DNA of 64,000 nucleotides from Paraspadella gotoi (GCA_051294375.1 CM119265.1:6457489-6521488); one strand, 5' to 3'. Counted from the first letter of the stretch, positions 4,401-28,200 are shown. Numbers and translations are program-made. Notes: generated by a model from the sequence alone, not told the origin.

Positions 4401-7400
4401 TTTGAAGTAACGAGAGGCGACGCGGACATTGTACTCTTGATCAGGATGATAAAACTCCGCCAATCCCCAGTCGATGAGGCGCAATTTTCGGTTTTCGTGG
4501 TCGATCATGACGTTGTGAGGCTTCACGTCCCGGTGCATAATTCCCATCGAGTGGCAATAATCGAGCGCCTTGAGCAGTTCGAAGAGGTAATACCGGATAT
4601 CGTGATCGGTGAGCGTCTGGTACAACTGCTTAAAGTCAGTGTTGTTGACGTGCTCGAACGTGAGGGCCGGGGTGCGCGAGATTGGATCCTTGACAATGTC
4701 GAGCAGAGTGATGATGTTGGGTCCTCCGCGCAGGTTCTGCAGGATCTTGATCTCGCGTCGAATCTTTTTCTTCTTGACGGGCTTGAGAATTTTAATGACG
4801 GCCTTGTCGTTGTTGGTAATGTTGATGGCGTCAAAGACTTCGCTATATTTCCCGCGTCCCAGTTTGCGAACGATCTGATTGAGATGATGGTTAGTTTTTC
4901 AATACTTGTTGATAACTAATTATCATTATCTCGCGTCTACCTGATAGTCATCTTGATTTCCCCACTCGACGACGTGGGATTCGTAATCCCAATAGTCCCG
5001 CGATCTGTTGGTATTGGCGTCCGCGTACACGCGGGACTTGGATGGCAACGCCATCAACGGAGACAGCTGAGACGAGCAACGGCGGATGACGGTCAAGCCG
5101 TTTAGCATCCGATGGTAACGTCTTTATTTTTTTATCTAAACGTGTCGTTTTTCAATCTTTGGTTCTAAGATATTAAACAACAATAAAAATAATAACTAAA
5201 TAAAAGAGTAACACGTACTCTGAGACTCGAACAACTTATCATACAGTGGGCGAGAAAGGTTTTTTTTTTTTCTCAAACACTTCGCCGTCACAAATTAATC
5301 TTAATCGATCTAAAATGAACGTGTTTTTTCGAAGGTGCAGACTTTAAGGGCTTCACCTTCCCCACTCCCCTACCCTTCCCCTTTTCGTCCTCCTCATCGC
5401 CTCCTTCCTCTTCCTCCTCAAATCCATGGTGCATCCGGGAAGAGTTTCATTCAAATCATAAAGAGAATCATCTCGTCGGCCTTCAGAGTCCCATAGTGGT
5501 AGCCGAACAGAAGAACATCGCCCCACTCCGTTTAAATCACTTTGTTTCGGAACAGTTTTTTTTCTTCATTATTATCAGTATTATACGTACGAAGTTTTTA
5601 AATATATAATTAAATCTGTCAAAGAATGAAATACAACAAATAGCTATCATAAAATAACGTGGTCCCCTTGACCCAAGAAATCACCTGCATCTGTAAGGCA
5701 TTCCGTCCTCAGCGAAGATGCTGCATCCAAAGTCTCCCTTCTTAGGTTGCGACAGGGGACGGCAATTTGACGGGATTGCATAGTAGTGATCGACGGCGTT
5801 AAGCAGCGATCGACATTTCCCACTAAAGTGAACGAGAGGAGGGAAGGGCAATAATAATCGTAGGGTAAAGACTAAAGAGTTGCCCCGACCTTGATCGCGG
5901 CGACGACTTACCCGAGTTCCATCAGGTGAAAGTAAACTCTTTGGCACGATTCCGAAAAGACGACGTTGACTTTGGTGGCCTCTCCCGCCGTCAGTTTATG
6001 TTTCGACGGGGCAATGGAGCGCGGAGGGCTTGCCGGTTTGGAGGGAGATTTCTCTTTTACCGGAGAAACGAGTGTCGAACAAGCAAGCGGCTGAGGGGTC
6101 TTGGCCGACGGCGCGATCAAAGACGAGTTTGCGCGCGCGACGAACCTTTCTAACTCGTCGTTAAGGCACTTGCCAGTCGAATCAATCAGCGTCACGTAAC
6201 GGTCGTTGCCCAAGGTGACGGAATAGCTCTCCTTATTTATGACTACAAGCTGAAATCGAAAACAAGGAACGAAACGATTAAGTTAAAGAGACGATTCCAA
6301 AATTATTTTTATAAAAACCTGTGACGTTTCTTTTGCAAGGTCGACAGAGCTTTTTTGAAGAAGACTATAGGGCCCGACGGCAAACGGTGGTAGCTTTTCC
6401 AACTAAAATGGGGAATTTGGGATTCAAACGTTAACTAGACGAATCCTCGTCCCACAACGAACAAGAGTAGGTAGATAGGTACTAACCGCGGGGGGCAACG
6501 CAAAGATCTCGCGTTTGTGGCGTACAATGAATTCGGGATAATCAATGATAAAAAGTTCGAGGTCATCTTCCCCCTTTGATTTCACCACCTGATAGTATTC
6601 AATTTAGAACTGCCATTAGGAACAATTAATTTAAATTAGCTTAAATACGATTTCCATAAGAAATAAAATTCGTTCCACATATATTTCTAATAGTCAGAAC
6701 TCTAATAATATATAATAAAGATAATCTACTAATGTACTAACTTGGCATCGGTAAAATGCTTCGTGGTGCTGGGTCATCCCCACATCCCCAACTAATGGGT
6801 ACTCCAATGCCTGAAGATTGTTTTGATCTTCACAAAATTCAGCGACGGTTTCGGTGAAAGCATTAAAAGCTTCATCGTTGCTGTAAATAGAAAATTTGAA
6901 AAATGCATTTTCAAATATAATATCTTTAACTCATTTCTGTAAGTATAATTCAAATAATTCAAACCTTTCTAAATGAAAATAAGCTTGGTCGTAAGTCTGG
7001 CAGCTACAGCAGAAAGCCTTAGTCGGCTTGTTCAACAGGAAATCGCGAACTGAATCGGGCGACAAAGCGGGTCCCGCAACTTTTAGTGGGACGGGTTCAA
7101 CGGGTGAACCAATCTTCCGGGCCGATGTCACATCTTTATTTGATTGAACTTTGTTTCTGGTCAAGTTTGTTGACACGTCTACACCGTCCAACGTCGTCAA
7201 GCGGACAAGGAAGGGTTCCTGATTAAACCATATGGACCATACGACAATACGGAGAGATCATCATCGCGACATTTAAAAACAAATTAGTGGAGTTCACTTT
7301 ATTTAAATTGGGCTTACCGTTTCAGAAAGGAAGTTTATTTTCACGTCTTTTTCGGCAAATTCGGAAAGGAGTGTGTCGGCGCTGTCCGCCCACTCCCGAT

Positions 7401-11046: not shown

Positions 11047-14000
11047 TTATCCGGAATTTGCTTGCGGCATCACGAAGGGCTTTACAAGAAAGAGTTTCAC
11101 TTTGCCCCCATCGCCCGTATAGATGGGGGCTTTTTTGTAGTGATCTACAAGTTCCTCGAGAGAAGCAAACCGTCGTGTGCCGATGTTGAAGACGCCGTCG
11201 ACAAACCGGACGCGAAAATGCTTGTTTTTACCTTAATAAAAACGCACGTTTAAGTACTAATAGTTCTTGATAAAACTTAAGCGGTAAAAATAGTGGAATC
11301 GGAGGAGGAAACGTTTACCAGGCGCTTTGAGGGAAACGGAGTAATCTCCGACATTAGTCTCGCTGTCTCTTATCGCGAAATCCCCATCGACGCCGTATCG
11401 ATTGAGCATTTCGTCGCAGTCATGACGCTTTATCGTTCCATAGTACCACTCCTTTGACGCGAAAGGACCAGTCAGTCCTGAGATAAAACAAAATAAATTC
11501 TTTCAAAGCTCGAGGGGTATTGAAGAAATAGAAGGAAAATAATGGTATATTTCGCGAAGAGTAGAAACGAGAGAATGTATCGCTAGACAAAATATACTGA
11601 GGGGCAGGAGGAGGAAAGAAGAATAAGAGGAAGAGGAGAATTGGACGGCAGGCTAAATCCTCCTCTGCAAAGCGTGGTTCATATTAAGAATTCTTTGAAG
11701 GATTTACAAGCGCATTTATATTTACCGTATTCAACACTTACAATCAGACATTTAAAACTTTTGACCATTTATTTTTTAATGACTCCGAGAGTCGGCAATT
11801 GCAAACCAAATTAACCTTGTCTATAGTACAAGGCGGTTATCGCGGACTGATCAGCGCTGGAAGTGTCGTCGGAGGCTCGCCCAGTGGAACTCGTAGTGTT
11901 ATGATTCTGTCCACCAATCAATTGACTGAAAAGAAAACACAAATGACAAGGTAAATGAAGTCGGATTCTTCTTCATTTTATCAATCGCCGTACCTCGTGG
12001 AGCTATTGTTCATGAGATGCTGGTCCCCTTGCGAGACGGTGGAATTATTGAGTGCGTCGTCCTCGACGACCTCGACGTAGTTGCGCGGAACAAGGCCGAT
12101 CTCGCCTCGGGCGTTGCGAGCGCGCCACCATTCGGGATCGTTGGCCGGTTTTTCAACGATTTCCAACCTGATGAGGATTGAGGAAGTTATTAAAATAAAA
12201 GAGAAGCAGCAGCAGCCGGGTATCTCAAAAGGGATACTAACTTTTCCCCGTGATGAAAAGACAGTTCTTCCTCGTTTTGAGCGCGGAATGGGTAAAGGGT
12301 TTGGACAATGTGAAGCACGTCGGAATCGCCGTGAGAGTCGTACAACCGACCATCAGCGTGTATGAACTGAAAAAAAAAAAGAGCGAGCCAGTTTATTGAC
12401 AAAATCTGCACAGGGGACAGCCGGAGAAAAAAAACTGAAGAACGAACCTGAGGCGTGGTCGTTTTGTTGTTCTGTTGATTCGTTGGCGTCGGAGGTAAAG
12501 CTCCAAATCCCCGCGAGGGACCTTTCGAACAAAATAACATTACTTTAGAGTAAGTATCAAAATCGTTAACTCAAACAGCAATCAAGAACATGTGACTAGA
12601 ATTTTCATTCAGGATCGTCTTTCACTCACTCTCCTGTCCCATTCCGGGAGGAAAGGTGGTCGGTGACGAAGGCGTGGAAGAAGCGAGGCCGACTTTGGAA
12701 GAATTGGCGTTGGTGGTGGTGGCGGTTGTCTGGCCGGCGGAGACGAAAGGGCTTCCGGTCGAAGGAATGGCTAAATCAAAATTTTATCTTTAGTATTGTG
12801 GCAGTAAATTCACACTGCCTGACAGCCAGCCTCATTCAGCCAATCGAATTGCCTCAGAGGGGGAACGCACCATTTTATGCGTTGCGTTCCATTCCACAGT
12901 CCTAAACACTTCCCTCTGTGTTGGCAAAGCGAGAACGTCCTAGGGTAACCGCGCTAGTGGCAGGCGGCGCCACTTAGGGTCGGAAGCCCCTAAAGCATCA
13001 CATGCAACTCGGCTGTTGCTATAAGTGGTAAGCCCTACTAAGGAACACGCAACTTTCTCAGGGTATGCTACCTCAAACGCCTATGTCCTGACAACTTCGG
13101 GTACGCTACGGCAAACTCCTATGCCCCTGGGGTATGCTACGACAAATGCCTATGTCCCACTACAACGCGCTCTGTATCTCTCTCCCACTATAATAGCAGT
13201 TTTCTCACACACCTCTCAGGCCTAGAGAACCTGAGTGATGGCTTGCCCGATAATCCTGTGGCACTAAATTAATTCTGTTTCACATCCAGCATTGACTCAG
13301 GGGGGGAATGCAACATCCCATCTCTAGTAAGTACTTTTATGACAAACTTATTTTATTTCTAAGGCAACAGCTTCAAATTCATACTCGAGAGCTGTGGCGT
13401 GTTGGAGTGCATGTCGTAGAGCTCCTGGACGTAGTTGGAGGGGAACCAGCCGATCTTGCCGGCTCCCGAGTCTCCGCGCCACCACCCGTCGGGACTCTTT
13501 TCCATTATCGTCACAATCGATCCTTTCACCAGAGAGATTTCGTCGTCACGGACCGCGTCGTACTTGTATTTTACTGATAGAAAAAAGGGTAAAAATTTAT
13601 GTTATGAGACGTAGCGAGTCTTAATAATCACACAAATAGTTTAAATATCTACAAATTTTGTTTCGGGTTCTAATTTTTTAGTCTTAACGGCTAATCGGCA
13701 TCCGTCTCACCGATGGCGTTTATGTTGAGGTTGCACTGATTTCCCTCGCTGTTGGTGCTGGCGGAATCGGATCCGCCGGGGTAGCTGCTGTTGCCGCTTT
13801 TATCACCGGCCATCGACGAAGCGACCGGGTTCGCGCCGCCGCCTACTCCGCCGCCGACGCGCTGGGCCTGACTAGAGTCTTCCGAGTGATGCAGCGTGGG
13901 CATTGACGTCGATTTGTCTTTGTCCTTCATCGTCACGAGGTTTTGCTTTATTCGCTTAAAGAAGGAAGCTTTTTCGCGTTTCACGTAGTTGCTAGGTACA

Positions 14001-14260
14001 TAGCCTGGAAAGGTAGGGGCGAAAATTAGGGAGAAAAAAAAGATGTATATAGGTAAAAGCTTCCGATTAAATCTAAACACGCACGAACCCGTTTGATTTT
14101 TGGCGTTTTGCACCCGCCACCAGTGTCTAGAGTCATCGAGTAAAACTAGTTTGTCGTTCTTCTTCATGTCGAGCTCCTGAGCGTCCTGAGCGGCGTAATC
14201 GAACTTGGCCACCACCATGACTGGTTCGCCTCCAGCCACCTTCGACAGGTCCGACTCCAT
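11047..14260 (-). CDS. NCK: Nck/Dreadlocks adaptor (SH3-SH3-SH3-SH2)
   Basis: SH3-1 [31 protein letters not shown]; SH3-2 exon ~13576-13385 ([10 protein letters not shown]); SH3-3 [40 protein letters not shown]; SH2 [43 protein letters not shown] lies in a GCCGCCATGG context; TAA at 11049-11047. Confidence 0.95.
12917..13002 (+). ncRNA. Twister ribozyme, type-P5 permutation, copy 1
   Basis: P5 UGUGUUGGC/GCAUCACA; GCGA-GA-ACG; P1 UCCUAGGG; U^AA at 12946/12947; P2 CCGC; GC (T2); P3 AGUGGC/GCCACU; P4 UUAGG/CCUAA around the twister L4 motif GUCGGAAGCC. One mismatch in T1 and a C-A pair at the L1 end of P2. Confidence 0.75.
13060..13160 (+). repeat. Three imperfect ~29-nt motifs (gggtatgctac..aaa.gcctatgtcc) in the internal region of the twister LTR element
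   Basis: gggtatgctacctcaaacgcctatgtcc / gggtacgctacggcaaactcctatgccc / gggtatgctacgacaaatgcctatgtcc. Confidence 0.85.
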
Positions 14261-14320
14261 GGCGGCCTTCAACTTCCCCTTTTTATAAAATTTAGTTTCT
14301 TCGAAAAGGGAAGATAAACG

Positions 14321-17300
14321 CTAAACCAAGTTTTCTCGTCGTCCGTTTCCTTTCGCCTGTTTTCTCAGGAGACCGCCGAGGTCGCTAAGTTCGTAGACGG
14401 CGACGACGGTGACGCGGACGAAGAGGGCGTGCGAAGAGACTAAATCCGTGAGCGAGACGATCTACATTACGATAGATTTATAACATCTAGTAAATGAATT
14501 ATGAATTGGAAGAAGTGAAAATTTCCAATCCGAAATGTTTCTGGAAAAATAATTAAAAAGACGTAGAACCCCCCCCCTGCAAAACAAAAACATTCAAACC
14601 AACTCGGGAGTCTCGGAGAGAGAATAAAAATTAAGAAATTCGCCAAAATTGATGCCCACCTGTTGAAAATCTCGCTCAGCGTTCGGTTTCCACTCGAGGA
14701 CTTCTTCCTCTCGGATGGAGATTGGCGAGCCGAGGCCGACGGTGGGACCGAGAGAGGCGAGAATCTCGATGGCTTTTCGCTTCGCGTTGTCGATGGCGAG
14801 AAGAGAGGTTTTGCTGCGCAGTTCCGCGATTCGTTGCGCCGGAAGTTCAACGACTTCAGGCGGGAAAATTCGAACGTTTATTGGGTCGAGTTTTTCGGTC
14901 AAAACGTTTGAAAGCGTCTCGCACTAAAACGGCGATAGGAGACATTACAATATTAATCTTAAATTTTTTTACAATCAGTTTCTGAATGTGGCAATTAAAG
15001 CAAATAAATTTACCTGTAAAAGATCGGAAAAAATCGCTGAGATTTGGGCAGTGAACGTGAAGGAGTTATCGCAATTTTCTTTTCGTTTCAAAACTTTAGA
15101 AACTTGAATCTTGCTTTCCGTTACTCCATGATGTTTTATCGCCTTTAAGAAAAAGGGTCATTCAAATCAACTTCAAAATAGGCCAAAATAAAAAGGCTGA
15201 GCTCCTGGCGATTCCGAAAATGTATTCACATTAAACATTTGATACATTCTACACCATTTTATATCGGTTTTAATTATAATATAAAATAAAAGAAACCTAT
15301 CTGAAGAGTTGCAGGTCACACGAAAAGGACGATCCATCTGATATTTTTTATGAATTTTTTATCAGTGAATTCGAAAAATGTAATAGAGACATTTTTAAAT
15401 TTTAACTTGTATCCTTGAAAATGAAACATTTTTAAACTTTAACCCTGAATTCTTCCTTAATGGAACGCGTTTATCAAAATGTCTCTCTATTACATTTTTA
15501 CAATTGTTTTTAAGATTGCTAATCAAATTTTTAAATCAATATTATATTAGTCGTTTAGGCTGCAACTCTTCAAATTCAGTGTAGATTCATTCATTCATTC
15601 ATTCATTCCATTTATTACTGTGTTTTGTCAAGTTAAATTGGTAGCATATGAAATTGGTACAACCAATATAAAAATTATCCATTCATTTAATAAATAAGCT
15701 ATCTTGCCCCTGACTTTGGACAGGCTTTGGTGGTTTCAGGCCTCCATCACTCTTACAAGATAATGACATAGCAGGTCCCTGCAAGCTTTCAATCAAGACT
15801 CTCTCACAGTCTCGTTTATTCACTCCCAGACTACCTGGCTTCCCTATCAATGAAGTGGTATAATATTTCAAAGAATGTTTCAATTGTATGAAAAGACCAC
15901 TCCCTTAAGTATTAGATCGGGGAATACTTATTGTACTCCGCACTAGCATCAAAATACAAGGAGCTGAATTTTATAAAATTGGTACAACCAATATAAAAAT
16001 TATCCATTCATTTAATAAAGATTAAAGATTTGTTTTTCAATTTTGTTATTTACCGATTTAAAAAAAATTCTTGAAAACAGAATGTTTATATATAAATAAA
16101 AACTTTTTTTTTGTGAGACAATATCATGGACAATCCCAAAAGACTCTAAACTTACCGATGCATGTTATTATAAAACATTGGCTATTTGATTCATGTCTAT
16201 TTATATTATTGTTTTCCCTTTCAGCCCTGTGAGCATCGTGTATTTATTATCATAGAAAGTACGTGTTCGAGTGTGTGTCCTAATCTAGTTGGCGTCCCCG
16301 TTCTCTTGTGCATTCCTATTCACAGATCCTATACTGTGGGCAACCTTGTGGTCGACCGTGCCGCCGTGTGGTTAACTGACATTGTGGTTCATACGTTAGA
16401 GGGTCTCGTGCTTCTCAAGCCCGGCCGGCGCCCGCCGGCATCGCCCACAACAATCACCCTCTAACAGTGGTGCATCGTCCTATCCATCTTCGTGTGGAGA
16501 ACACCCTTAGTGGTCGACAGTTCAAACACTTTTCTCTGGAGTGTCGCTTCATTAACCCATTGTCTATCGGGTTGACTCTGAGGCACTGTGGATTCGTGAC
16601 CACAACCTGTCCGTCAGCAGTCACGCTGTCATGATAGCCGTTGGTTCAGCCTGACTGTGAAGCTACATTGTTCCTTTCACAAAAATATTTTATCCGTGAT
16701 CTTCAACCCAGCATATCCACGAAGCAAAGGCTTGGTCGCTGCTTGGAACTTGGTCGGCCTTGTAAGGCGACAAACCTTACCAAGATCCGTTCGCCTTGTC
16801 GCGCGGCTTATCCCGGATTCTTGGCTACAAGCTCAACAGAAGATCCAGCTTTAAGAAGTCGGAGGGGCCGGGTCTAGCTAGCCCCCCCCCTCGTGTGGCA
16901 CGACTCAATCGTTCTATTTGCAAGTCCGCCTCTACAATTAGCACGGTGCTCACCCCAGCATCGCCCACAACAATCACCCTCTAACATGTATTTCTCTAAG
17001 TATTAGCTCTAATACATCAATGATTACAGAAGGCTTCATATTATAAAATGTGGTACTGTGGCGGTATATTCACACAGCCATCACCGTCCACCATCGTTTC
17101 AGCCCAAATCCATTGGCTCACAAGGGGGAACACACACCATCCCAGGCGTGAGTTTCATTAGGGCTGTGCCAAAAATTCTCAAACATCAAGTAAGCTCAAC
17201 TTTACATCCGGTTACAATATGTGGGGGTATAAAAAAAGATGTTTGCCAAAATCTCGTCGATTATGGCTTCAAACACCCTTAGCACTACCCTGCTTTAAAG

Positions 17301-20300
17301 GATTTTTGGCCAGCACTTTGAACTAAAAAATTAATTGTTGAAAAGTATGACTTAGTTTATCCGGTCCACTCAACTTTATTAGCTGAGGAAAATATCAAGA
17401 TTATTTCAACATCAATTTCGAGTGCTCTTTTCCATCCACAGCCCTTCAAGACTGGTCCACAGCACGGCTGAGGATGTGGAGTTTGATAACATCATTGCTT
17501 ATAAGATTTCCTAACCATTTAGGGTAGAATCTCTTACTTTGGCATAGTTTTACAACTAATATATGTTCACCTGTAAATAAATTGAAAACATTTGATTTTT
17601 TATTTAGTGGCTGTGGTTACAATCCTGGAGGATACTTCCTGTTCCTTTTTTTATTTTTAATAAAATTACTATTTTAAAATTACATCTTTTTGGATAATTT
17701 ATTGTTACAGGCTTGATGTAATAATGATTCAAAAAATTGGTTCACTAACATCCAGAAAAAATTGCATGAATTAACATAGGTTTCAAGAGAGCCTCTCTTG
17801 AAGGATCTGGGAGCACACTCACATCACCCCTTTTAACTTAGTTAAAGATTACTTCTTTTTTTTAAATATAAAATGCATGTTTTGGTTAAAATTTTTATGA
17901 ACCAAAAATTACTGCTTAAAGTTTTTAATACACATACCAATTAAAAACTAGAGTAGATTTGAATACTGCAACTATGGCCAAAATGGATTTATGGTTGTAA
18001 TTTGCCTTCACTAGAGAATCGTTGGAGAACAATAACAAAAGGGGGATAAATGTACAATATCATATTGAAAGAAATTCCTATTAAATTAACCGGAAGGATC
18101 TTATAACTACGACAATGACGAAAACGACGAACAACAATTGATACCAGAGGATTCCTGTAAATTATCGGGTGAAAAGAATCTTTGTGGCACTAAGGTCATG
18201 TAAATGACTGAGGTCATTCGAGTCACCCAAGTAAAACTAATTATTAAACACATAAATTTATGTCAAAGAATAATATTTAATAATAAGACTTTTTGATCAC
18301 CAATATATATTATATAATTTTATAGTAATATTAAATGATTAATTAATCGATAGTGAATCAAATAAATATTCACCAAGGAAAACTGGCAACAGCAACTACA
18401 GAGACAATAATCATTAACATACTAACAAGTTTGAGCAAACAATGTCGGATCTTGCCCACGAAATCATTTCGGTAATTAATTATAAAATAATTAAATAATT
18501 CAAGTTAATTAATTAATATATTAGGGCAATAATTTTTTAGGTCTTTTCGTCACTAAACCCGAACAACAAGCCAAATGACGAACGATGGAAAAAATGCTGA
18601 TAACGATTGACTTGATCAGATTGACTGATTAATTAATTATTGGATTGTTTATTTGACTAATTGATTATTAAACTAATTCATTAATTTGATTAAATTATAT
18701 AACCTTGCATTTTACAATTTAATAGCATAAGAAAAGAACAATAACTCAAATTAGTGAAACAGGTTTCTGTGTTTTCAGGATATCGTCCTATCCACTCATT
18801 GAGCAATTGGTGTTCAAATGGTGAAATATATTTTTTTGTTTTTTCCATTTAATCATTTCCACTCAGACGATTCCATCGAAACTTCATATCCAGCTCAATC
18901 ACAACATCCCTACCCAGTACCCACACACAAAATTTCATTCAATCCATCCATCCAATCACGAATAAATTGGTGTTTTTTGCTAAATGGGACGTACGGACGG
19001 ACGGACAGACAGACGGACAGGATGGACGGGATGGACATATTTTTTTGAATAATTTATCATAATTCGATGTTCTGACATGATATAAGTGAATGCCGACAAG
19101 TTGAGGGGGCGACTAAAATGCTAAATATTACTTGGATATTGTCAAAGTAAATAAGAATAAGGCAAAAAATTAGAAAAAGAGACAAACAATAGCCAAATAA
19201 TAAAAAAAACTATAACAATATAACAATTTGTATTTAATTATTCGTATTTAAAGTTGTTAAGTTGTCAAGGGAATGGTAATTGTGAATGCTTTCTTTCGTT
19301 GCACATTGTGAATTAGTTTGAGAGAAGAAATTTTTGTATTGTCGTTGACAAATAATGTACACTGTTTCAGACTTATTTGTAAGTCTCTTCAGCGCGAATT
19401 AAATGATTTCACAGCTTTGTATTTAATGTGAAAAAGATGAGTGAGAGAGAGAGCAGGAGAGAAGAGGCTTTCCAACAAAGGAATTTGAAAAAAGGACAGT
19501 GCTTGTTTTGAGGGAACGGATTAAATTTTGATTGACATAGAGTGAGGGAGAGTTGAAAGAGAAATGAAATTCAAATCAGATTTGAGTTAAAGTGAATAAA
19601 TACATTTGCACATTTAATGGAAATGGTACAATCGAGCTTGACACTATTCATCCTATTGATTCTAGCTTTTTAAAGACAAAATAGCAAGGGTTGAAAGGAA
19701 TAAAAAATTATGAGAGGAACATTATCGATAAAAATATCTAGAACACGTTGTCGAATTTAATTCCTACCAATTTCGGACGTTGTAGAAAATAATTTTATTT
19801 TTTTAACTATTTTTTTTTTTTTAACAGAAAGGAAAATTAATAATCCATCTCTCAATCAATTTTTCTGCATATTTCATTAAATCCATTTATAATATTTAAT
19901 AAAATGGCATCTTCTGTATTTTTTTCTTGATTTGTTGATTTTTATTTTAAATGTTAAAATTCAAGCTGCATTAACTTAATTATTAATAAATAAGTAATTA
20001 ATTAATTATTAATTATTCGTAATTAATTAATTATTTATATTAATTTTTATTTAATTAAATTTATTTAATCGACTATTGTTGTTTACGCCGGTCATGACAA
20101 GACACGACCGTTTGGCCGTGGGACACGACGAGTTAATATCTGGCTGCTGCTCGCCCGGTTTTACGAATGTGAAGGAAGATATCTGGTTATTTTTAACGTT
20201 TGAAACGTTGCGAGAGACGAGAATTAGTGCCTCTCGAAAACTCGGACGTTAAATCGCTTTTAACTCACAGCGTTTGGTAGTTTTAATTTAAAGTCCATTT

Positions 20301-23300
20301 AATCTCAGTTTTAAATTCATTTTTTAATCTCACGTTTTTAACCTTTTATTCTCGGAAATTAAACCTCATTAATTTCATCCCAGCCGTTTTTATAATAACT
20401 AAACTTTTATCTCCGTTCTTTGTGCCAAATTTGTTGATAAATACAACTTACGCAACCAGTTCCCAAATTCTTAGCGTTCCTTTGATTGAAAGGGCGAGAC
20501 AAAAGTGGAAAAAACGATTTTGACACGAAAATAAAAACAAAATTTAATACTTAATTATTAATTACTTAATTATCTTGATCAGCTGTTACCGCTAATTGAT
20601 CGTGGCATATTCGGGCATTGCTTTGCTCGCAAACTTGTACTTTTCTTTCTTTCTTTTTTCTTTCTTCTTTCTGTCAGTCGTTCTCGCCTTTAATAAAAGC
20701 TTATTATCATTCTTTCTTACAATTTACTTGCACTGTTAATCGTTAGAACCAGTTAATTTAATAAAATTTCTCTCAAATACATTCGTTCATTGTCCGCCCT
20801 TTTGTTATTATTCTCCACTATTCACTCTAGTGAAGCAAATACGTTACTCATAAATCCATTTTGCATAATGAGTAATTCGAAATCTTCCCTAGTTCTTTAA
20901 TGGTAAGTGTATTAAAACTATGAAAGGCAATAATTTGGCAATAAAATTTTCACCAAACATGTATTTTATATATTAAAAAAAAAGGTTCTTTACTCAGTTT
21001 AAAAAGGGGGCTGTTGGAGGGTGCTGCCAAGAAATTCCTTCAAGAGTGACTCTCTTGAACCTTAGGCTTTAATTCAATGCAATTTTTTTGGATGTGACCA
21101 ATTTTTGTATGCATCTTATCATCAGCCCTGTAATGTAAAGTTATCCAAAATGAGTAATTTTATAAATTAGAGTAATTTTATATAAAATTTAAAAAAAATG
21201 ATACAGGAAGTACTCATCCAGGATGTAACCACACCCTTCATTAAATAAAATTCAAAAGTTCGTTGATTTAGATATAGGGGAACATAATTAGTTGTAAAAA
21301 ACTTATGCAAAAGTAAGAGATTTCTACCCCTAAATGGTTAGGAATTTATAAGAATTGATGTTATCAACTCACACATCCTCAGCGTGCTGTGGAGCCAGTT
21401 GTAGAAGGCTGTGGATGAACAAGAAGCACTTCAAAATTGACTGTGAAATAAATCTTTGGATGATTTCTACTAATAAAGTTGAAGTGGAACGGATAAACAT
21501 GTCATACTTTTCAAGCAATAGATTTTTTAGTCAAAGAGGTGCTGCCAAAATCCTTTACAGCAAGGGTAGTGCTAAGGGTGTTGAAGCAAATTCGACGAGA
21601 ATTTGGGCAAAACATCCCTTTTTTATACCCTACTATTGTGCCGGATGTAAATGAGCCACTATGATTTTCTGAAATTTTTGGCACACACCTAGTGTTCCAT
21701 CCCAGTCCTAATGACTTCCCTCTGCATTGGCAAAGCGAGACCGTCCTAGGGTAACCGCGCCAGTGACTGGAGGCGTCACTGAGGGTCGGAAGCCCCCAAA
21801 GCCAACAGTGAGATGCCCCATCCCAATGGGCATCACGGGCAACCCGGCTGTTGCCATAGTACCCCTTTTTTGTGACCAGAATCTGTTCCTACCAAACTAC
21901 CTGATCGAATTTCATGAAATTTTACATTTAGAGTCTTAATGACGATATAAATGGAACTATCGAGGCGAATTTGAATATTCAACCGCTGACAAGAGATACA
22001 GGGCCCTGGGGGTGGGGCCCTGGGGGTGGACCCCTGGGGGGCCAAAAAAACCTAAAATTTTTTTTTCATTTTTTGAAATTTTTTTAGTGGCATCAGGTGC
22101 ATTTACGTTTTAAACATATAAAAAAAACATTTTAAAACTAAAATTGAAAAATTTTCAATAATTAAGAATAGTTTGAAGATGCATGGTTCATCATTTTTAC
22201 TTCCAATTTCCCTAAATTATTCCAAAACTGACTTGAACAGCTGATGTTCATGAAGCTAAAAATTAAGGTAAACTAATATTCTGTGGTAATTAATACGTTT
22301 TTGTGGAAAAGTAAACGTCTATACAACTGTTCAATACAAAAATAATGAAAACATTTTTTTGACCATTTATTGTCAACCATATATTGTCAGCCACGTGGAA
22401 ACAATTGCTAAAGTCATGGGGTATCCAACACAACCTAACAACATCTTACCATCCACAGTCTAACGGTTTAGTCCAGCGTTTTCACCGACGATTAAAAGAA
22501 TCGCTCATCACTCTCGGTAACGACGCTCGCGACAACTGGTGAGCCTCTCCGCGAACTTATCCAACCTTCTTATTAAATACTTACTTAATAAGTAATTAAA
22601 CAAATCAATCTCGGTCTGATACCTATCCTTGATACTTATCCCGATTTTATCTTCACTGAAACTGAAACCTTGGTAGCCTCTAACTCTAAAACAACATTGT
22701 GAAGCCAACAAACAATAATTTTACTAAATCGGATGTCAATGCCAAGAGGTGAAGCGTCAAGTGGACCAGATTCTCCCTTCAGGTTGGGCAAAAGATGAAT
22801 AATTAAGTTTTGTAAAAGCTTGCCCTCTGTTGATCGTTTCCTTCTCTCTCTCACATTCCCCAACCTCCCCTCACCCCCGTCCCGGCGATGAGTGAACCAC
22901 ATCGCGAACTCGTCAAGGAGCCCGTCTTCGCCGGCTCGCGGACGATTCCTTCTCTCCAGGCCACTCCCACCTCAATCTGCCAGGCGGTTTTGGACGCGGC
23001 TGCGCTCTCGCTCCACATCTCCAAACGTTGGAGGCAATGAAAATCAATTCGCCTTCCACCTGCCTCCTGATACGGCTCCTCACGAGATGGCTGCAGCCCG
23101 GATCCCCAGGAGGCATTGGCCCGCACCATCGCCGACACTCTCGCGGCGTCGTTCAAAAACATCAACCTCAAAAACACAAAGCTTCCCGATTTTGACGCCG
23201 ACAATGTCGATCTTTGGATCAAAAGGGTAGCGCCGCCTATACCCGCGCCAAATATCAGCTCCCAAAGGAAAATTTGCTCATCTGGAAGATAAGTTTAGCG

Positions 23301-24176
23301 TGGACTTCAATCACGCATCAATGCTTTCCTCTTTGGCGCGCCAACTCCAGACAGATGGGAGGACTTTATCAAATACCTCCGAGCAGAATATGGCCGCACA
23401 AAATCGCAACAAGCTGCTTCACTTATCGATGGAACACGACGAGAAGGCCGTCGACCATCCCAACTCCTCGCCATAATGAAGGAGAAGGCGGGTGAAGTTA
23501 CAATCGACGACATCCTGAAAGAATGGTTGTTAAGGGAACTGCCCGTCGACGTCCAGGCGCAACCTTGCCGAGCGTGTGGAAACACTTGATGCCGAAACAG
23601 CAGCAAAATTCGCCGACTCATACTCAGGGGTCAAATATTGAAATTCACCTCGATAGTTCTATTTATATTCACATAGGGATCGTTCATACTAAATTTCAAT
23701 AAATTTGGTCCAGTAGTTTCCTCGGAACGTGTTCTGGTCACAAAAAAGGGGTACCACATTTTATAATATGAAGCCTTCTGTACGCATTGTTATGCTGAAT
23801 GACCCTTCCTCTTAAAATAAATGGATTTTGGATACTAATAAAAGGATTGAACTTGAAGGCGAATAAAATATCATACCTGTAGGACATAATCGAGTCTTCG
23901 CAAGACGCTCGCCTTGACTTCCTCCACGTTCTCTTTGCAGCTGGAGACGAGAACGACGAGTTTCACTTCTTCGGGTCGCAGACTTTGCTCGCCAACTGCG
24001 CGCACCTGAAGTTCGCGAACTCGGGCGACGGGCAAGGCGGAATCCGACTTTTCCGCACGTTCCTTGTCGGGAGTCGTGCTTTGCACGTCCAAGGAGTCCG
24101 CGAGGTGCGGGCTGCGAAGAGCCGGCAAAATAGATGCCACTACGCGGGAGGGACGTTGATGCGAGAAATTGGACAT
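14321..24176 (-). CDS. IRAK1BP1: IRAK1-binding protein 1 (SIMPL domain), ~277 aa, 4 exons: 24176-23877, 15142-15014, 14923-14660, 14461-14321
   Basis: All junctions are GT-AG, phase 0. Motifs PSRVVASILP, RELQVRAVGE..VSSCKENVEEVKASVLRRLDYVLQ, LTEKLD, LLAIDNAKRKAIE..GSPISIREEEVLEW match the SIMPL family as recalled. Intron 1 is 8.7 kb and filled with transposons. Confidence 0.9.
15146..15572. mobile_element. MITE/foldback-like repeat with nested inverted repeats; related copy near 61900-62283
   Basis: gaagagttgcag (15303) is inverted to ctgcaactcttc (~15560); aaaatgtaatagagacat is inverted to atgtctc(tc)tattacatttt. aagaaaaagggtcattcaaa..aaaataggccaaaa recurs reverse-complemented at ~62240-62282. 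Confidence 0.6.
15587..16020 (-). repeat. Dispersed retroelement-like 3' end with (AATG)n tail; related fragments at ~37955-38025, 43333-43430 and ~53270-53320
   Basis: aaattggtacaaccaatataaaaattatccattcatttaataaa occurs at ~15651 and ~15976, and nearly identically at ~43335. A (CATT)n microsatellite lies at 15587-15610. Confidence 0.6.
16163..16986 (+). mobile_element. Degenerate non-coding LTR element (TRIM-like) with a tRNA-Gly-type PBS
   Basis: Direct repeat gcatcgcccacaacaatcaccctctaACA ends at 16466 and at 16986. The first copy is followed by G-TGGTGCATCG, complementary to the tRNA-Gly 3' end CGAUGCACCA. The 5' boundary is uncertain. Confidence 0.5.
17159..21691. mobile_element. Non-autonomous DNA transposon with ~930 bp terminal inverted repeats (MULE/hAT/foldback-like)
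   Basis: 17159-~18095 is the indel-rich reverse complement of ~20750-21691. Ends are TAGGGCTGTGCCAAAA and TAGGTGTGTGCCAAAA. Degenerate 9-bp TSD gagtttcat/gtgttccat. No transposase ORF. Confidence 0.75.
18424..19116 (+). mobile_element. Helentron-associated (HINE/DINE-1/pearl-like) non-autonomous element, copy 1
   Basis: Starts aacaagtttgagcaaacaatgtcggatc, shared with 49270 and 58099. Subterminal inverted tgtcgg/ccgaca; (GGAC/AGAC)n microsatellite at ~18988-19036. Confidence 0.65.
21723..21808 (+). ncRNA. Twister ribozyme, type-P5 permutation, copy 2
   Basis: P5 UUGGC/GCCAA (extendable by CUG/CAG); GCGA-GA-CCG with perfect T1 pairing to CGG of L4 GUCGGAAGCC; P1 UCCUAGGG; U^AA at 21752/21753; P2 CCGC; T2 GC/GC; P3 CAGUGAC/GUCACUG, compensatory relative to copy 1. 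Confidence 0.8.
21863..23782. repeat. Inverted pair of an interspersed repeat (17026-17056 plus 21863-~21995 versus 23620-23782) bracketing a gag fragment
   Basis: cccttttttgtgaccagaa..aaactac..gaaattt..aactatcgagg.gaattt.aatatt is present in both orientations. Confidence 0.7.
23087..23620 (+). pseudogene. Frameshifted Ty3/Gypsy gag fragment
   Basis: Joined frames give KLPDFDADNVDLWIKRV and EGRRPSQLLAIMKEKAGEVTIDDILKEWLLRELPVDVQ, resembling the KLPxFxxxxxxxW / RxPSQLL gag motifs. A possible PBS (TGGTGAGCC) lies at ~22537. Confidence 0.65.
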
Positions 24177-25296: not shown

Positions 25297-28200
25297 TTAA
25301 ATCGGTGGTGGTCCATTGGGATGAGATAATGCCGGACGAATTGAATAAGCAAAGTTGTTTTTAGTGACCGTACACGCGTACGCAGGCTCACGACGAGCGT
25401 AGATAAAAAGAAACAAAATAAACGGAATCAAAAGTAAGAACCATTTCAATAAAAACCAACACATTTGACCTCTGCTCGGGGTTTCTTTGTTTTCATTCAC
25501 GGATCTTACGTTCAAATTTTTATCCAATGATTCTTTTTCGCACCATTGTTCTCTATTCGAATCGTTATCGTAGGTTGGAAAAACTATTTTCTCTCTTTTA
25601 AACCAATTAAAAATTGAAAAACCGCTTACTTGGTTGATTTTATTTGAATAGTGACAGCTGGTCCAATCTAATTTTATATGACTTACTTCCAAAAATTTTT
25701 TGTAATAAAAAGCATTGGAAATCCAAACGCAAAATTTATTTCTGAGTGCGTTTCCTGCAGTGTTTTCTTCTGTCTCCCGGCACAACTGGGAATGAACTCC
25801 AGCGTTGATTGAATGACATCCATATAAGAATTCAGAACAATAATTATAGTTCGTCCAATCAAGCGATTTTGAGTGACGTAAGTCAAAAATCTTTTCTGTT
25901 TTTCCATCAGACTTTTTACCATGAAAATTAAAAAAATAATCGAATTTAGAGTATCCTTGTTGTGTTAGCACATCCACATTTGGTAATTCCACGCTGTCTC
26001 TCACAGAATCGGGTTTCGGGTTTTGATTAAATTCACTAACCAGGAGATTTGCATTTTGATGTCTAATAGTATTTTTTATATTTGTAGAAACGCCGTTCCC
26101 TATAAAATCAGTATTTAGAACATGTTCGCTAATTTTTGTTTTCTTGTAACAATTTCCGTAGTGATAGTTAAAAGTAGACCATTCAAGGTGTTTTTCAAAA
26201 TTTTCAACACAACTTTTCGTTTTCATAACTGCCATTTGGTTCAAGTCATCATTTTCCAGTTTACTTTTTAAAGAGACACGAGAAACATTCGAAATCGTTG
26301 CATCATTACCTTCGTCATAGTTTTGAGCGGCATCATGAAAAAAATGCTCAATATTCTTATCTAGAGAATTTCTGCTTCTCATTAAAATGCTATGCTCCTC
26401 AAGATCAGGCATATCGCCATTGTCATATTGGTCCTCCTCGTCGTCCGCAAAATAACCAGAAACCACACCTGCCTTTGCATTAGTAGTTTGACAAGTCGTT
26501 GACACATAGGTTGGGGCAGAGGAATTAACTTTAATCAATAAGATTTCCTTTTCGTCGCCGGACTTAGTATCTATAACTTCAGACGGTGATCCTGAATGCA
26601 TCGCGTCTATTGGTTCATTATGAGTTGAATTCAATTTCGTGTCAAGCAATTCGTTAGTTGATAACTGAGTCATTACGATTTCTTTAATGTCATGCGAGTT
26701 AGAAGGAGAAAGAGAAACATTCAGTCCCAATTTTTTTTCGCTGGCTTCCTGCTCATTAGTCACGTGGGGAACCATAGACGTAATTAAGGAAGTACTGATT
26801 ACCTCAGTAGGTAGTTTCAGATCTTTTGTACCAATGACATCTTCACTAGAAGCAACCACTTCCATTACTTTTGATTTTTCAACGTTCAAACTTTGAATGC
26901 TTGTTGCAACATAATGAACTTTCCCATGAAAATCTTCCTTATCTTGCTCTTTAGCAAATAGATCGGTTTGTTCGTTAGAAAATTGATTATCATTCTCTCT
27001 CTTAATTTTGAAATGATCTTTCTTCTTATTTTCAACCCACGATTGATCATCACTGATCTCAGAGAATCGCTCGTATATTTTAGTTTGGTCAATCTTATAC
27101 CATGAAAGGCCTTCATTTATTTCGGCAGCCAAGCGCTCCTCCTTCTCAGCAATGCGCAGATTACCCTTTTCTGTTTCTTCTGCAGCCAAGCTTAAACGCT
27201 TCTCTTTTTTCTTTGGAGATAAGCTCAGGCTCTCCTTCCCCACAGTAATACGCTGACGCTCCTTTTCTGCCTCCCCCACAGTAATGCGCTGACGCTCCTT
27301 TTCTGCCTCCCCTTCAGTAATGCGCTGACGCTCCTTTTCTGCCTCCCCTTCAGTAATGCGCTGACGCTCCTTTTCTGCCTCCCCTTCAGTAATGCGCTGA
27401 TGCTCTTTTTCTGCCTTCTCTGCAGTAATGCGCTGATGCTCATTTTCTGCCTTCTCTGCAGTAATGCGCAAGTGCTTTTTCTCTTTTTTCTTCACAGATA
27501 AGCTCAGGCTCTCTTTCTCTCTTGTTTTGTGGTGTTTCTGCTCTTTATTCTCTGCAGCAATGTGCAGGCGCTCCTTTTCTGCTTCTGCAACAATGTGCAG
27601 ACAATCCTTTTTTATCTCTGCTGAAGCAATGCGCAAGCATTCCTTTTCTGCCACCTCTGCAGCATTGTCAAAACGCTCCTTTTCTGCAGAATTGCTCAGA
27701 CGCCCTTTTTCTGCCCGATCTGCAGCCAAGCGCAAGCGCTTCTTCTCTTTCTTCTTCACAGATAAGCTCAGGCTCTCTTTCTCTCTCTTCTCGGCTGCCT
27801 TGTAGTGGCTTTGTTCTTTCTCTGCAGTAATGCGCAGACGCTCCTTTTCTGCTTCTTCAGCCGCAATTTGCAGACGCTCCTTTTCTGCTTCTGCTACAAT
27901 GCACAGACGTTCTTTTTCTGCTTCTGCTACAATGCACAGGCGTTCTTTTTCTGCTTCTGCCACAATGCACAGACGTTCCTTTTCTGCTTCCTCTTCTTGC
28001 CGCAATGCGCAGACGCTCCTTTTCTGCTTCCTCTTCTGCCGCAATGCGCAGACGCTCCTTTTCTGCTTCCTCTTCTGCCGCAATGCGCGACGCTCCTTTT
28101 CTTGCTTCTGCCACAATGCGCAGACGCTCTTTTCTGTTCTGCCACAATGCGCAGACGCTCCTTTTCTGCTTCTTCTGCGCAATGCGCAGACGCGCCTTTT

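What the first reader, a model, noticed from the sequence alone, without database searches (positions are those of the whole stretch)
12797..21858. Animal LTR element carrying a type-P5 twister ribozyme in its LTR: candidate twister LTR retrozyme
Seen: two diverged copies of a ~230-270 bp unit (12797-13023; 17057-17158 plus 21692-21858) with TGTGGC..GC(C/T)ATA ends. Copy 2 has a GTAC TSD, and its empty target is visible at ~23735-23782. Copy 1 is followed by a PBS-like TGG, a short non-coding interior and the start of a second LTR ~460 nt downstream. Both copies contain the twister core in P5-permuted order (GA+T1 strand, P1, UAA, P2, GC, P3, P4 with GUNNNAAGC loop), with compensatory changes in P3, P5 and an upstream GGAAC..GUUCC hairpin. 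Known: plant LTR retrozymes carry hammerheads in their LTRs and give circular RNAs; described animal retrozymes are non-LTR and mostly hammerhead-based; Schistosoma twisters are linked to non-LTR retrotransposons. Inference: a non-autonomous Gypsy-mobilised element whose LTR-to-LTR transcript self-cleaves to a ~460-nt monomer that may circularise. I do not recall this combination being described but cannot confirm novelty.
Basis: partly seen in the sequence, partly recalled or inferred. Interest (0 to 1): 0.92.

Follow-up and report, generated by a model that had tools for sequence, protein, structure and literature searches.

The report
Twister ribozyme in animal retrotransposon LTR
A short, multi-copy jumping element in this animal genome has the ends and primer site of a CsRn1-type Gypsy retrotransposon and carries in its terminal repeat a twister-ribozyme pattern that is predicted to cut its RNA and would let it spread through a small RNA circle, a strategy that the papers searched describe only for plant elements with a different ribozyme.

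Summary
The anatomy holds. The unit is a real LTR: TGT...ATA ends, a 4-bp GTAC duplication proven by an empty site, and a tRNA-Trp-type primer site. All three are published hallmarks of CsRn1-clade Gypsy elements, and a CsRn1-type gag remnant with the same primer motif lies in the window. Contigs of public runs show a high-copy family and other loci in which the interior runs into a second LTR. Both copies carry every twister landmark in type-P5 order (descriptor: 2 hits in the window, 1 hit in 300 shuffled windows), and this is the best-conserved part. Against: Rfam twister-P5 and my own model miss it. P1 is an 8-nt palindrome, the first P2 pair is C.A, and a rival fold is predicted to be more stable. 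No PPT is seen. Neither window locus can yield a monomer, and the claimed P5 covariation fails. Cleavage and circles are untested. Best reading: a non-autonomous, probably CsRn1-mobilised LTR retrozyme with a twister in place of a hammerhead (0.55). It may cut as a strand-swapped dimer. Not found in 10 literature searches.

The parts
12797..13023 (+). LTR copy 1 (5' LTR position), TGT...ATA ends; lacks 29 nt that copy 2 has after P4
12862..12890 (+). 8-bp hairpin upstream of the ribozyme, one compensatory pair against copy 2
   Evidence: loose ends
12929..12991 (+). type-P5 twister pattern, copy 1: P2b 12929-32, G12933-A12934, T1 strand 12935-37 (one mismatch), P1 12938-45, U12946^A12947, P2a 12949-52, GC 12953-54, P3 12955-75, P4/L4 12976-91
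13026..13035 (+). primer-binding-site-like motif TGGTAAGCCC, 2 nt after the LTR end; tRNA-Trp type of the CsRn1 clade, one letter off the published motif in its first 10 letters
13024..13256 (+). 233-bp interior, no coding capacity found (66-codon frame without Pfam match); three ~28-nt repeats at about 13061, 13099 and 13130; multi-copy; no purine tract at its 3' end
13257..13320 (+). truncated second LTR (5' ~65 nt only; 46 of 58 aligned letters equal to copy 1), no ribozyme
12771..13384 (-). intron of an Nck-like SH3 adaptor gene; the element fills about 525 of its 614 nt, antisense to the gene
   Evidence: splice sites inferred from GT/AG and reading phase
17053..17056 (+). GTAC target-site duplication, left
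17057..17158 (+). LTR copy 2 (solo LTR), 5' part
17159..21691 (.). later insertion into copy 2: non-coding DNA transposon with ~940-bp inverted repeats and a 9-bp duplication (7 of 9 letters alike); Mutator/foldback-like by inference
21692..21858 (+). LTR copy 2, 3' part, ends GCCATA
21727..21805 (+). type-P5 twister pattern, copy 2: P5 21727-31/21801-05, P2b 21735-38, G21739, T1 21741-43 pairing L4 21787-89 (3 of 3), P1 21744-51, U21752^A21753, P2a 21755-58, GC 21759-60, P3 7 bp, P4 3 bp
21859..21862 (+). GTAC target-site duplication, right
17027..23780 (.). host element with TA-flanked inverted repeats (Tc1/mariner-like by inference); copy 2 sits in its left repeat
23751..23754 (-). empty target site (single GTAC) in the right inverted repeat
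22366..23589 (+). decayed CsRn1-type Gypsy pieces: integrase core fragment 22366-22539, primer motif TGGTGAGCC at 22537, broken gag to 23589; candidate type of helper element, does not carry this LTR

Best explanation
This is a high-copy, miniature LTR element with CsRn1-type ends and primer site whose LTR holds a P5-permuted twister pattern; it is likely non-autonomous and mobilised by a CsRn1-clade Gypsy, and the twister is predicted to cut the transcript in both LTRs, giving a roughly 490-nt unit that would be ligated into a circle and reverse-transcribed. Shown: LTR ends, 4-bp TSD with empty site, primer motif, short non-coding interior, high copy number, twister landmarks and their conservation. 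Inferred: (1) an LTR-interior-LTR transcript is made; (2) each LTR cuts at U^A, probably inefficiently, because P1 is a tiny palindrome and a blocking fold competes; pairing of two P1 palindromes (8 bp) may be what switches it on; (3) a cut at the same site in both LTRs removes the terminal repeat needed for strand transfer, so ligation into a circle would replace it, as argued for plant retrozymes (PMC4918200); (4) tRNA-Trp primes at the PBS and the helper's RT and integrase make new copies, solo LTRs included. The two window loci are decayed: copy 1 has a pseudoknot mismatch, a deletion and no second ribozyme; copy 2 is a solo LTR split by a transposon.
For: CsRn1 hallmarks (TGT...ATA or AAA, 4-bp TSD, TGGTGAG/CCCCGT/A) from PMC2582038 section 6 are matched by the window. 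The motif TGGT[AG]A[GC]CC occurs only twice in 64 kb: after copy 1 and before the gag remnant. The gag piece is 59% identical to P0001, which has the CX2HX9CX3C signature. 1191, 420, 548 and 114 contigs were laid in the 4 of 9 listed runs examined; 7 DNA contigs (4 joint types) run from the interior end back into an LTR. Descriptor: 2 hits against 1 in 300 shuffles; the same descriptor describes 28 distinct phage sequences, and 12 of 20 phage loci scanned scored as Rfam Twister-P5. Core identity between copies is 40/42 against 118/142 in the head and tail (p=0.03). The same CCG/CGG pseudoknot occurs in a phage twister-P1 (L060, E=2.4e-9). P1 is dispensable and P1/P2 imperfections are tolerated in tested twisters (PMC5408937; PMC11662667). 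Plant retrozyme hammerheads are also blocked in their predicted minimum-energy folds. No AATAAA in the LTR.
Against: No Rfam twister-P5 hit, and my model from 22 phage P5 twisters also misses both copies (best overlap E=3.6; that training set had only GGG/CCC pseudoknots and long P1 by my own selection). P1 is 8 nt against 15-26 nt in the phage set; the first P2 pair is C.A, where 21 of 21 phage examples pair. The pseudoknot-free minimum-energy fold of copy 2 is a rival that buries the T2 GC and is 7.7-12.9 kcal/mol below the twister fold, whereas 17 of 21 phage examples keep P4 in theirs. No PPT before 13257 and no clear right-hand TSD for copy 1. No complete two-ribozyme element was read. 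The tolerance data cover type-P1 twisters only. No helper element sharing this LTR's boxes was read in full. The conservation test rests on two copies.
Confidence: 0.55

Rival explanations
1. The twister cuts, but only to make one end of a linear RNA (for example the 3' end in place of a poly(A) signal, with the 5' copy held in the blocking fold). The element then replicates as an ordinary TRIM with normal strand transfer and no circle.
For: No AATAAA/ATTAAA in either LTR copy; a strong blocking fold is predicted at all 9 growing 3' ends tested; twisters define one end of Perere-3 RNA in Schistosoma (PMC8501958 abstract).
Against: Both LTRs are identical at insertion, so selective cutting of one needs an extra context effect that was not shown; plant LTR elements with this anatomy give circles (PMC4918200).
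Confidence: 0.2
2. The motif is twister-derived but does not cut; it persists as a structural signal, such as a palindromic RNA dimerisation or packaging site, or as a relic amplified with a successful LTR.
For: Covariance models miss it; C.A at the first P2 pair, 2-3-bp P1 and the rival fold; the P1 palindrome forms an 8-bp self-duplex.
Against: All catalytic landmarks and both pseudoknots are kept in copy 2; among the 40 of 84 variant rows shown, only 12935 falls in the 26-nt core, and there the contigs side with the paired form; a purely structural role would not need G21739, U^AA and L4 to be kept.
Confidence: 0.15
3. The LTR belongs to an autonomous CsRn1-clade Gypsy family, and the 233-bp interior is a deletion derivative. 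The ribozyme would then be a feature of a coding retrotransposon (not exclusive of the best explanation).
For: Ends and primer motif are those of autonomous CsRn1 elements; the LTR core is 8-14 times deeper than the interior peak in the three DNA runs, which leaves room for other interiors.
Against: The short interior is itself multi-copy and joins to a second LTR at other loci; it has no similarity to the leader of the gag remnant; solo LTRs also explain the excess.
Confidence: 0.1
4. It is a Penelope-mobilised tandem (non-LTR) retrozyme or the pseudo-LTR of a Naiad-type element.
For: Described animal retrozymes are non-LTR and Penelope-linked; unchecked earlier notes of this scan report similar P5 twisters with abnormal P1 in Naiad elements; interior-to-LTR joints would also arise in tandem arrays.
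Against: Exact solo-unit insertion with a 4-bp TSD and an empty site, CsRn1-type ends and a primer motif; animal non-LTR retrozymes lack LTR, PBS and PPT (PMC7761336).
Confidence: 0.03

Closest known systems
Plant LTR retrozymes (Cervera, Urbina and de la Pena 2016, PMC4918200; passages read)
   Same: Short non-coding LTR element, ribozyme inside the LTR, 4-bp TSD, LTR end and PBS shared with a Gypsy lineage, solo LTRs, ribozyme blocked in the predicted minimum-energy fold.
   Different: Animal host; twister pattern instead of a type III hammerhead; tRNA-Trp/CsRn1 instead of tRNA-Met; smaller (LTR about 260 bp, interior 233 bp); PPT not seen; cleavage and circles not shown.
Type-P5 twister ribozyme (Rfam RF02684; layout; review PMC5408937, passages read)
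   Same: Order P2b-GA-T1-P1-UAA-P2a-GC-P3-P4/L4 with UNNNAAGC; both pseudoknots can pair in copy 2.
   Different: P1 is an 8-nt palindrome rather than a 6-11-bp hairpin; first P2 pair is C.A; a closed P5 is present; not detected by the Rfam model; sits in an animal LTR.
CsRn1-clade Ty3/Gypsy elements (PwRn1, AgCR; PMC2582038, section 6 and passages read)
   Same: TGT...ATA ends, 4-bp TSD, tRNA-Trp-type PBS; a CsRn1-type gag remnant lies in the window.
   Different: No gag-pol in this element, no PPT in this copy; the search 'ribozyme' + 'CsRn1' returned 0 papers.
Animal TRIMs, including Helenus and Ajax (PMC10886601; passages read)
   Same: Under 1 kb, two LTRs, non-coding; animal Helenus makes 4-bp TSDs; a small-RNA-like module inside the LTR.
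   Different: The LTR module there is a tRNA or 5S promoter, not a ribozyme; ARAGORN finds no tRNA in this window.
Schistosoma Perere-3 twister variants (PMC8501958; abstract and introduction read) and animal non-LTR retrozymes (PMC7761336 passages; bioRxiv 10.64898/2026.07.22.740005, part 1 of 5)
   Same: Self-cleaving ribozyme carried by an animal retroelement.
   Different: Those are non-LTR (an RTE 5' end with a twister, or tandem type I hammerhead arrays) and have no LTR ends, PBS or 4-bp TSD.

Membership tests
Twister ribozyme, type P5 | Elements in P5-permuted order with U^AA, G-A, GC and UNNNAAGC | tested here: met
   both copies; 1 chance hit in 300 shuffles
Twister ribozyme, type P5 | Pseudoknot T1, three pairs | tested here: met
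   copy 2 3 of 3; copy 1 2 of 3; contigs side with the paired letter at 12935; same pairing in phage twister L060
Twister ribozyme, type P5 | Pseudoknot T2 (GC with GC) | tested here: met
   sequence of both copies
Twister ribozyme, type P5 | Four-pair P2 | tested here: not met
   3 of 4; first pair C.A in both copies, paired in 21 of 21 phage examples; P2 imperfections tolerated in type-P1 tests
Twister ribozyme, type P5 | P1 closed as a stable hairpin | tested here: not met
   8 nt, hairpin +2.7 kcal/mol, self-duplex -11; P1 is reported dispensable
Twister ribozyme, type P5 | Significant covariance-model match | tested here: not met
   Rfam; own model
Twister ribozyme, type P5 | Site-specific self-cleavage at U^A | not testable with these tools
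   needs an in vitro assay
LTR retrozyme | LTR direct repeats flanked by a 4-bp TSD | tested here: met
   solo copy 2 with GTAC duplication and empty site; paired LTRs only partly seen (13257 truncated; joints)
LTR retrozyme | A complete ribozyme in each of two LTRs of one element | tested here: inconclusive
   not in this window; contig joints reach the ribozyme-proximal LTR at other loci but no full element was read
LTR retrozyme | PBS after the 5' LTR | tested here: met
   13026-13035
LTR retrozyme | PPT before the 3' LTR | tested here: not met
   none before 13257; other copies diverge from the window after 13244 and their letters were not seen
LTR retrozyme | Non-coding interior | tested here: met
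   233 bp, 66-codon frame without Pfam match
LTR retrozyme | Type III hammerhead as the ribozyme | tested here: not met
   no hammerhead match; twister pattern instead
LTR retrozyme | Accumulation of unit-length circular RNA | not testable with these tools
   no raw RNA reads were listed
CsRn1-clade Gypsy system (as passenger) | LTR ends TGT...ATA or TGT...AAA | tested here: met
   an AAA-ending variant followed by AG-TGGTGAG in one X9 contig
CsRn1-clade Gypsy system (as passenger) | tRNA-Trp-type PBS and 4-bp TSD | tested here: met
   the organism's own tRNA-Trp was not available for comparison
CsRn1-clade Gypsy system (as passenger) | Gag with CX2HX9CX3C and pol in the same element | tested here: not met
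   absent from this element; a separate remnant's homologue has the signature
Animal non-LTR retrozyme / Penelope pseudo-LTR | Tandem type I hammerhead units without PBS, LTR ends or 4-bp TSD | tested here: not met

The most novel reading that the evidence does not exclude
The first animal LTR retrozyme, built on a twister that cuts only as a strand-swapped dimer: two RNAs pair through the palindromic P1 (8 bp), so cleavage and circle formation would be tied to RNA dimerisation in the Gypsy particle, while a built-in rival fold keeps monomers and finished circles uncut.
Probability: 0.2. Interest if true: 0.92.

Novelty: new variant of a known kind. Interest (0 to 1): 0.74.

Why it matters
In the papers read, LTR retrozymes are plant elements with hammerheads and animal retrozymes are non-LTR. 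An animal Gypsy passenger with an unrelated ribozyme at the same place would show that the LTR-ribozyme-circle strategy arose more than once and does not depend on the ribozyme class. It gives a direct test of the proposed circle-templated reverse transcription, since a cut in both LTRs leaves no terminal repeat for strand transfer. It also points to twister variants in animal repeats that Rfam does not detect.

Tried and rejected
Rfam scans: window at gathering level, 0 hits; both copies at E<=10, only a partial twister-P1 match. Own covariance model R1: no significant hit. My first regular-expression scan missed both copies because it demanded one P4 pair too many; the corrected descriptor is. 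The P5 coordinates were off by one and were corrected. Searches for the short palindromic-P1 variant elsewhere: viral contigs 0 hits and 1 hit; JGI metagenomes 2 hits; GTDB 52 hits. None of these passes the P5 descriptor (and 34 for L002 and L001), so no relative outside this organism was found; these collections hold few animal sequences. Gag relatives in viral contigs: none. Expression: no RNA holder listed. Run X9 is only guessed to be RNA; its interior-to-core depth ratio is 0.79 against 0.07-0.13 in the DNA runs, which I do not count as evidence because contigs cannot show RNA level. Zero cover at 13271-13450 is not interpreted (filtered records). No whole genome is held, so copies could not be listed and no further TSDs checked. 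Whether any contig joins this LTR to the gag-bearing leader at 22537 remains open. The sigma-70 promoter scan is irrelevant to an animal locus. Folding z-scores are unremarkable (-1.77 and 0.14). Rejected: P5 covariation between the two copies; MITE or SINE reading (no terminal inverted repeat beyond 6 nt, no tRNA head, primer motif present); a coding role for the interior.


Full report
Setting. The window is animal genomic DNA: it holds SH3 adaptor (Nck-like), Tudor, CK2, nesprin-like and alpha-catenin-like genes (the names beyond the Pfam domains are my recognition, not a tool result). No whole genome is held. Nine public runs of one organism, from 3 studies, hold the region; one sample may be the source of the window.

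The unit and its ends. Copy 1 is 12797-13023. Copy 2 is 17057-17158 plus 21692-21858, split by a 4.5-kb element with ~940-bp inverted repeats and a 9-bp duplication. Both start TGTGGC and end GC(C/T)ATA. Copy 2 is flanked by GTAC on both sides. It sits in the left inverted repeat of a TA-flanked element (17027-23780), whose right repeat preserves the target with a single GTAC. So the unit inserted, or was left by recombination, as a precise piece with a 4-bp duplication. Two bases after copy 1 comes TGGTAAGCCC, then a 233-bp interior, then about 65 nt of another LTR head at 13257 (46 of 58 aligned letters equal to copy 1). That head stops before the ribozyme; no purine tract precedes it and no AATAAA occurs in either LTR. 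Copy 1 lies antisense in an intron of the Nck-like gene, so the host pre-mRNA would not carry the cutting strand.

Which retrotransposon lineage. PMC2582038 (section 6 read whole; passages) states that CsRn1-like elements have 4-bp TSDs, LTR ends modified to TGT...AAA or TGT...ATA, a tRNA-Trp PBS TGGTGAG/CCCCGT/A, a PPT and a CX2HX9CX3C Gag. The unit matches the first three. The motif TGGT[AG]A[GC]CC occurs twice in the 64 kb, both strands counted: at 13026 and at 22537. The second site precedes a broken gag whose 93-residue stop-free piece is 59% identical to P0001, the only hit among 183 candidates. P0001 carries the CX2HX9CX3C signature and a weak DUF7041 match below cut-off. An integrase-core fragment lies just upstream (below cut-off). 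This remnant does not carry the twister LTR, so it shows the type of helper present in the genome, not the helper itself.

The family. I laid contigs from 4 of the 9 runs on 12650-13450 at 80% likeness: 1191, 420, 548 and 114 contigs were laid. Depth rises from single-copy level exactly at the LTR start and peaks on the twister core. Summed depth at 12935 is 18,000-21,000 times the flank in the three DNA runs. The tool warns that this is no copy number; dividing by 31 for overlapping words (my assumption) leaves roughly 600 as a floor. The interior is multi-copy too, most of all its thrice-repeated 28-nt motif. Seven DNA contigs, in 4 joint types, go from the interior's end (13218-13244) back into an LTR (12799-12908), so other loci have interior followed by LTR; tandem arrays would look the same. 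Of 84 variant rows 40 were shown. Eleven fall in 12893-13000, and at 10 of them the contigs' common letter is that of copy 2 (compared), so copy 2 is the typical form and copy 1 the outlier. Loose ends at 12995-12996 show that the 29 nt missing from copy 1 are normally present. One contig of run X9 ends the LTR in AAA followed by AG-TGGTGAG, the other published CsRn1 terminus.

The twister pattern. To have an independent yardstick I fetched phage loci by pattern (48 and 5 loci); 12 of 20 scanned scored as Rfam Twister-P5 at 44-59 bits. A descriptor of that layout with pairing filters describes 28 distinct phage sequences and hits the window only at 12929 and 21735. In 300 block-wise dinucleotide shuffles of the window it hit once; its tolerances were set knowing the window copies, so this is somewhat generous. 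Copy 2 has the catalytic G (21739), U^AA (21752-54), both pseudoknots (T1 3 of 3), a 7-bp P3, a 3-bp P4 and a 5-bp P5. Copy 1 has one T1 mismatch. The CCG/CGG pseudoknot also occurs in a phage twister-P1 (L060, 1 of 4 loci; E=2.4e-9). Between the copies, core plus P4/L4 are 40/42 identical against 118/142 for LTR head and tail (one-sided p=0.03; P3 and P5a left out of this test). P3 has one compensatory pair and one broken pair in copy 1; the upstream hairpin has one compensatory pair.

Results against. Rfam gives no gathering-level hit, no Twister-P5 hit at E<=10, and only a 15-bit partial twister-P1 match. My model from 22 phage P5 twisters also fails (best overlap E=3.6); it was trained on sequences selected for GGG/CCC and long P1, so the miss is expected in part, but it is a miss. 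P1 is 8 nt against 15-26 nt in the main phage registers. The first P2 pair is C.A, where 21 of 21 phage examples pair. The predicted minimum-energy fold of copy 2 pairs the P5 5' arm with the T2 GC and P3a, and P3b with the P5 3' arm; it lies 7.7-12.9 kcal/mol below the twister fold before pseudoknots are counted and dominates at all 9 lengths tested. In 17 of 21 phage examples P4 survives in the minimum-energy fold. Mitigating: P1 can be deleted without loss (PMC5408937, passages); P1, P2 and outer P4 imperfections were tolerated among 1948 scored natural twisters, while pseudoknot mismatches were not (PMC11662667, section 31 and part 1 of 2 of section 32; type P1 only); and plant retrozyme hammerheads are likewise blocked in their predicted folds (PMC4918200, passages). 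The P1 segment is a palindrome: hairpin +2.7, self-duplex -11 kcal/mol, 8 pairs. Dimer cleavage is known for Penelope-linked hammerheads (PMC7761336, passages); for this twister it is my inference.

Mechanism. Shown: a miniature LTR family with CsRn1 signals and a conserved twister pattern in the LTR. Inferred: an LTR-to-LTR transcript is cut at U^A in both repeats, conditionally, perhaps as a strand-swapped pair; the unit (260 + 233, about 490 nt for a copy-2-type LTR) has no terminal repeat, so ligation into a circle would stand in for the first strand transfer, as argued in PMC4918200; tRNA-Trp primes, and a CsRn1 helper copies and integrates it. I give this 0.55: about 0.9 for the LTR passenger, 0.75-0.8 for a working ribozyme in active members, and the circle as the likeliest but not the only use of the cut. 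Rivals are single-end processing of a linear RNA (0.2), a non-cutting structural motif (0.15), an autonomous carrier (0.1, partly compatible) and a Penelope-type element (0.03).

What is known. Ten full-text searches found no description of a ribozyme in an animal Gypsy LTR or of a twister LTR retrozyme; 'ribozyme' + 'CsRn1' gave 0 papers. A 2026 preprint still divides retrozymes into mainly plant LTR/type III and mainly animal non-LTR/type I hammerhead kinds (10.64898/2026.07.22.740005, part 1 of 5; supplements not seen). The nearest statement is an enrichment of type-P1 twisters among non-coding RNAs linked to plant Copia and Gypsy insertions (PMC11933835, one passage and two supplement rows), without anatomy. 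Twisters at non-LTR 5' ends are described (PMC8501958, abstract and introduction; PMC7761336), and twister-bearing circular RNAs are known from metatranscriptomes (10.1101/2022.07.19.500677, passages). Passages of PMC6765202, PMC10886601, PMC13725137, PMC10085705 and PMC12471100 added nothing closer. Roth et al. 2014, Repbase and Dfam were not seen, and most subscription papers are outside the library, so prior listing cannot be excluded. Unchecked notes from this scan report similar P5 twisters with abnormal P1 in Naiad elements, but none in a true LTR among the results shown.

Verdict. A real feature and a new variant of a known kind: it is built like a plant LTR retrozyme but fails membership on the ribozyme class and, in this copy, the PPT, and it should be filed as twister-like until it is shown to cut. 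Interest 0.74.

Noticed in passing
window 13061-13157: Three ~28-nt repeats in the interior are its most repeated part across contigs; candidate packaging or transcription signal. They do not share one predicted hairpin.
   Followed up: partly
window 21719-21811: The P5 3' arm resembles the T2-GC/P3a segment, so two mutually exclusive folds are possible; looks like a built-in on/off switch.
   Followed up: partly
window 17027-23780: Three-level nest: a TA-flanked inverted-repeat element carries a solo LTR in its left repeat, itself split by a long-TIR element with a 9-bp duplication, and holds Gypsy integrase and gag pieces in its interior.
   Followed up: partly
window 22366-22545: The integrase fragment runs directly into a primer motif and leader with no LTR between; the TGG of a Trp codon coincides with the primer motif, suggesting a microhomology-mediated join.
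   Followed up: no
window 3861-4898 (-): Intron-free CK2-alpha-like reading frame among genes that have introns; possible retrocopy.
   Followed up: no
window 27131-31396: Long coding tandem repeat (EAEKERLRIAA-like units) in a nesprin-like gene, with frequent frame changes that suggest assembly errors in the repeat.
   Followed up: no
window 12844-12860 and 17100-17120: CCAAT/ATTGG-like inverted motif in the LTR head; possible promoter element or hairpin.
   Followed up: no
L060:57-125 (-): Phage type-P1 twister with a CCG/CGG pseudoknot, below Rfam's gathering score (48.3 against 67.2 bits) but E=2.4e-9.
   Followed up: partly
L003-L050: Many IMG/VR phage contigs hold type-P5 twisters, some with a P3 hairpin that the Rfam consensus lacks.
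   Followed up: partly
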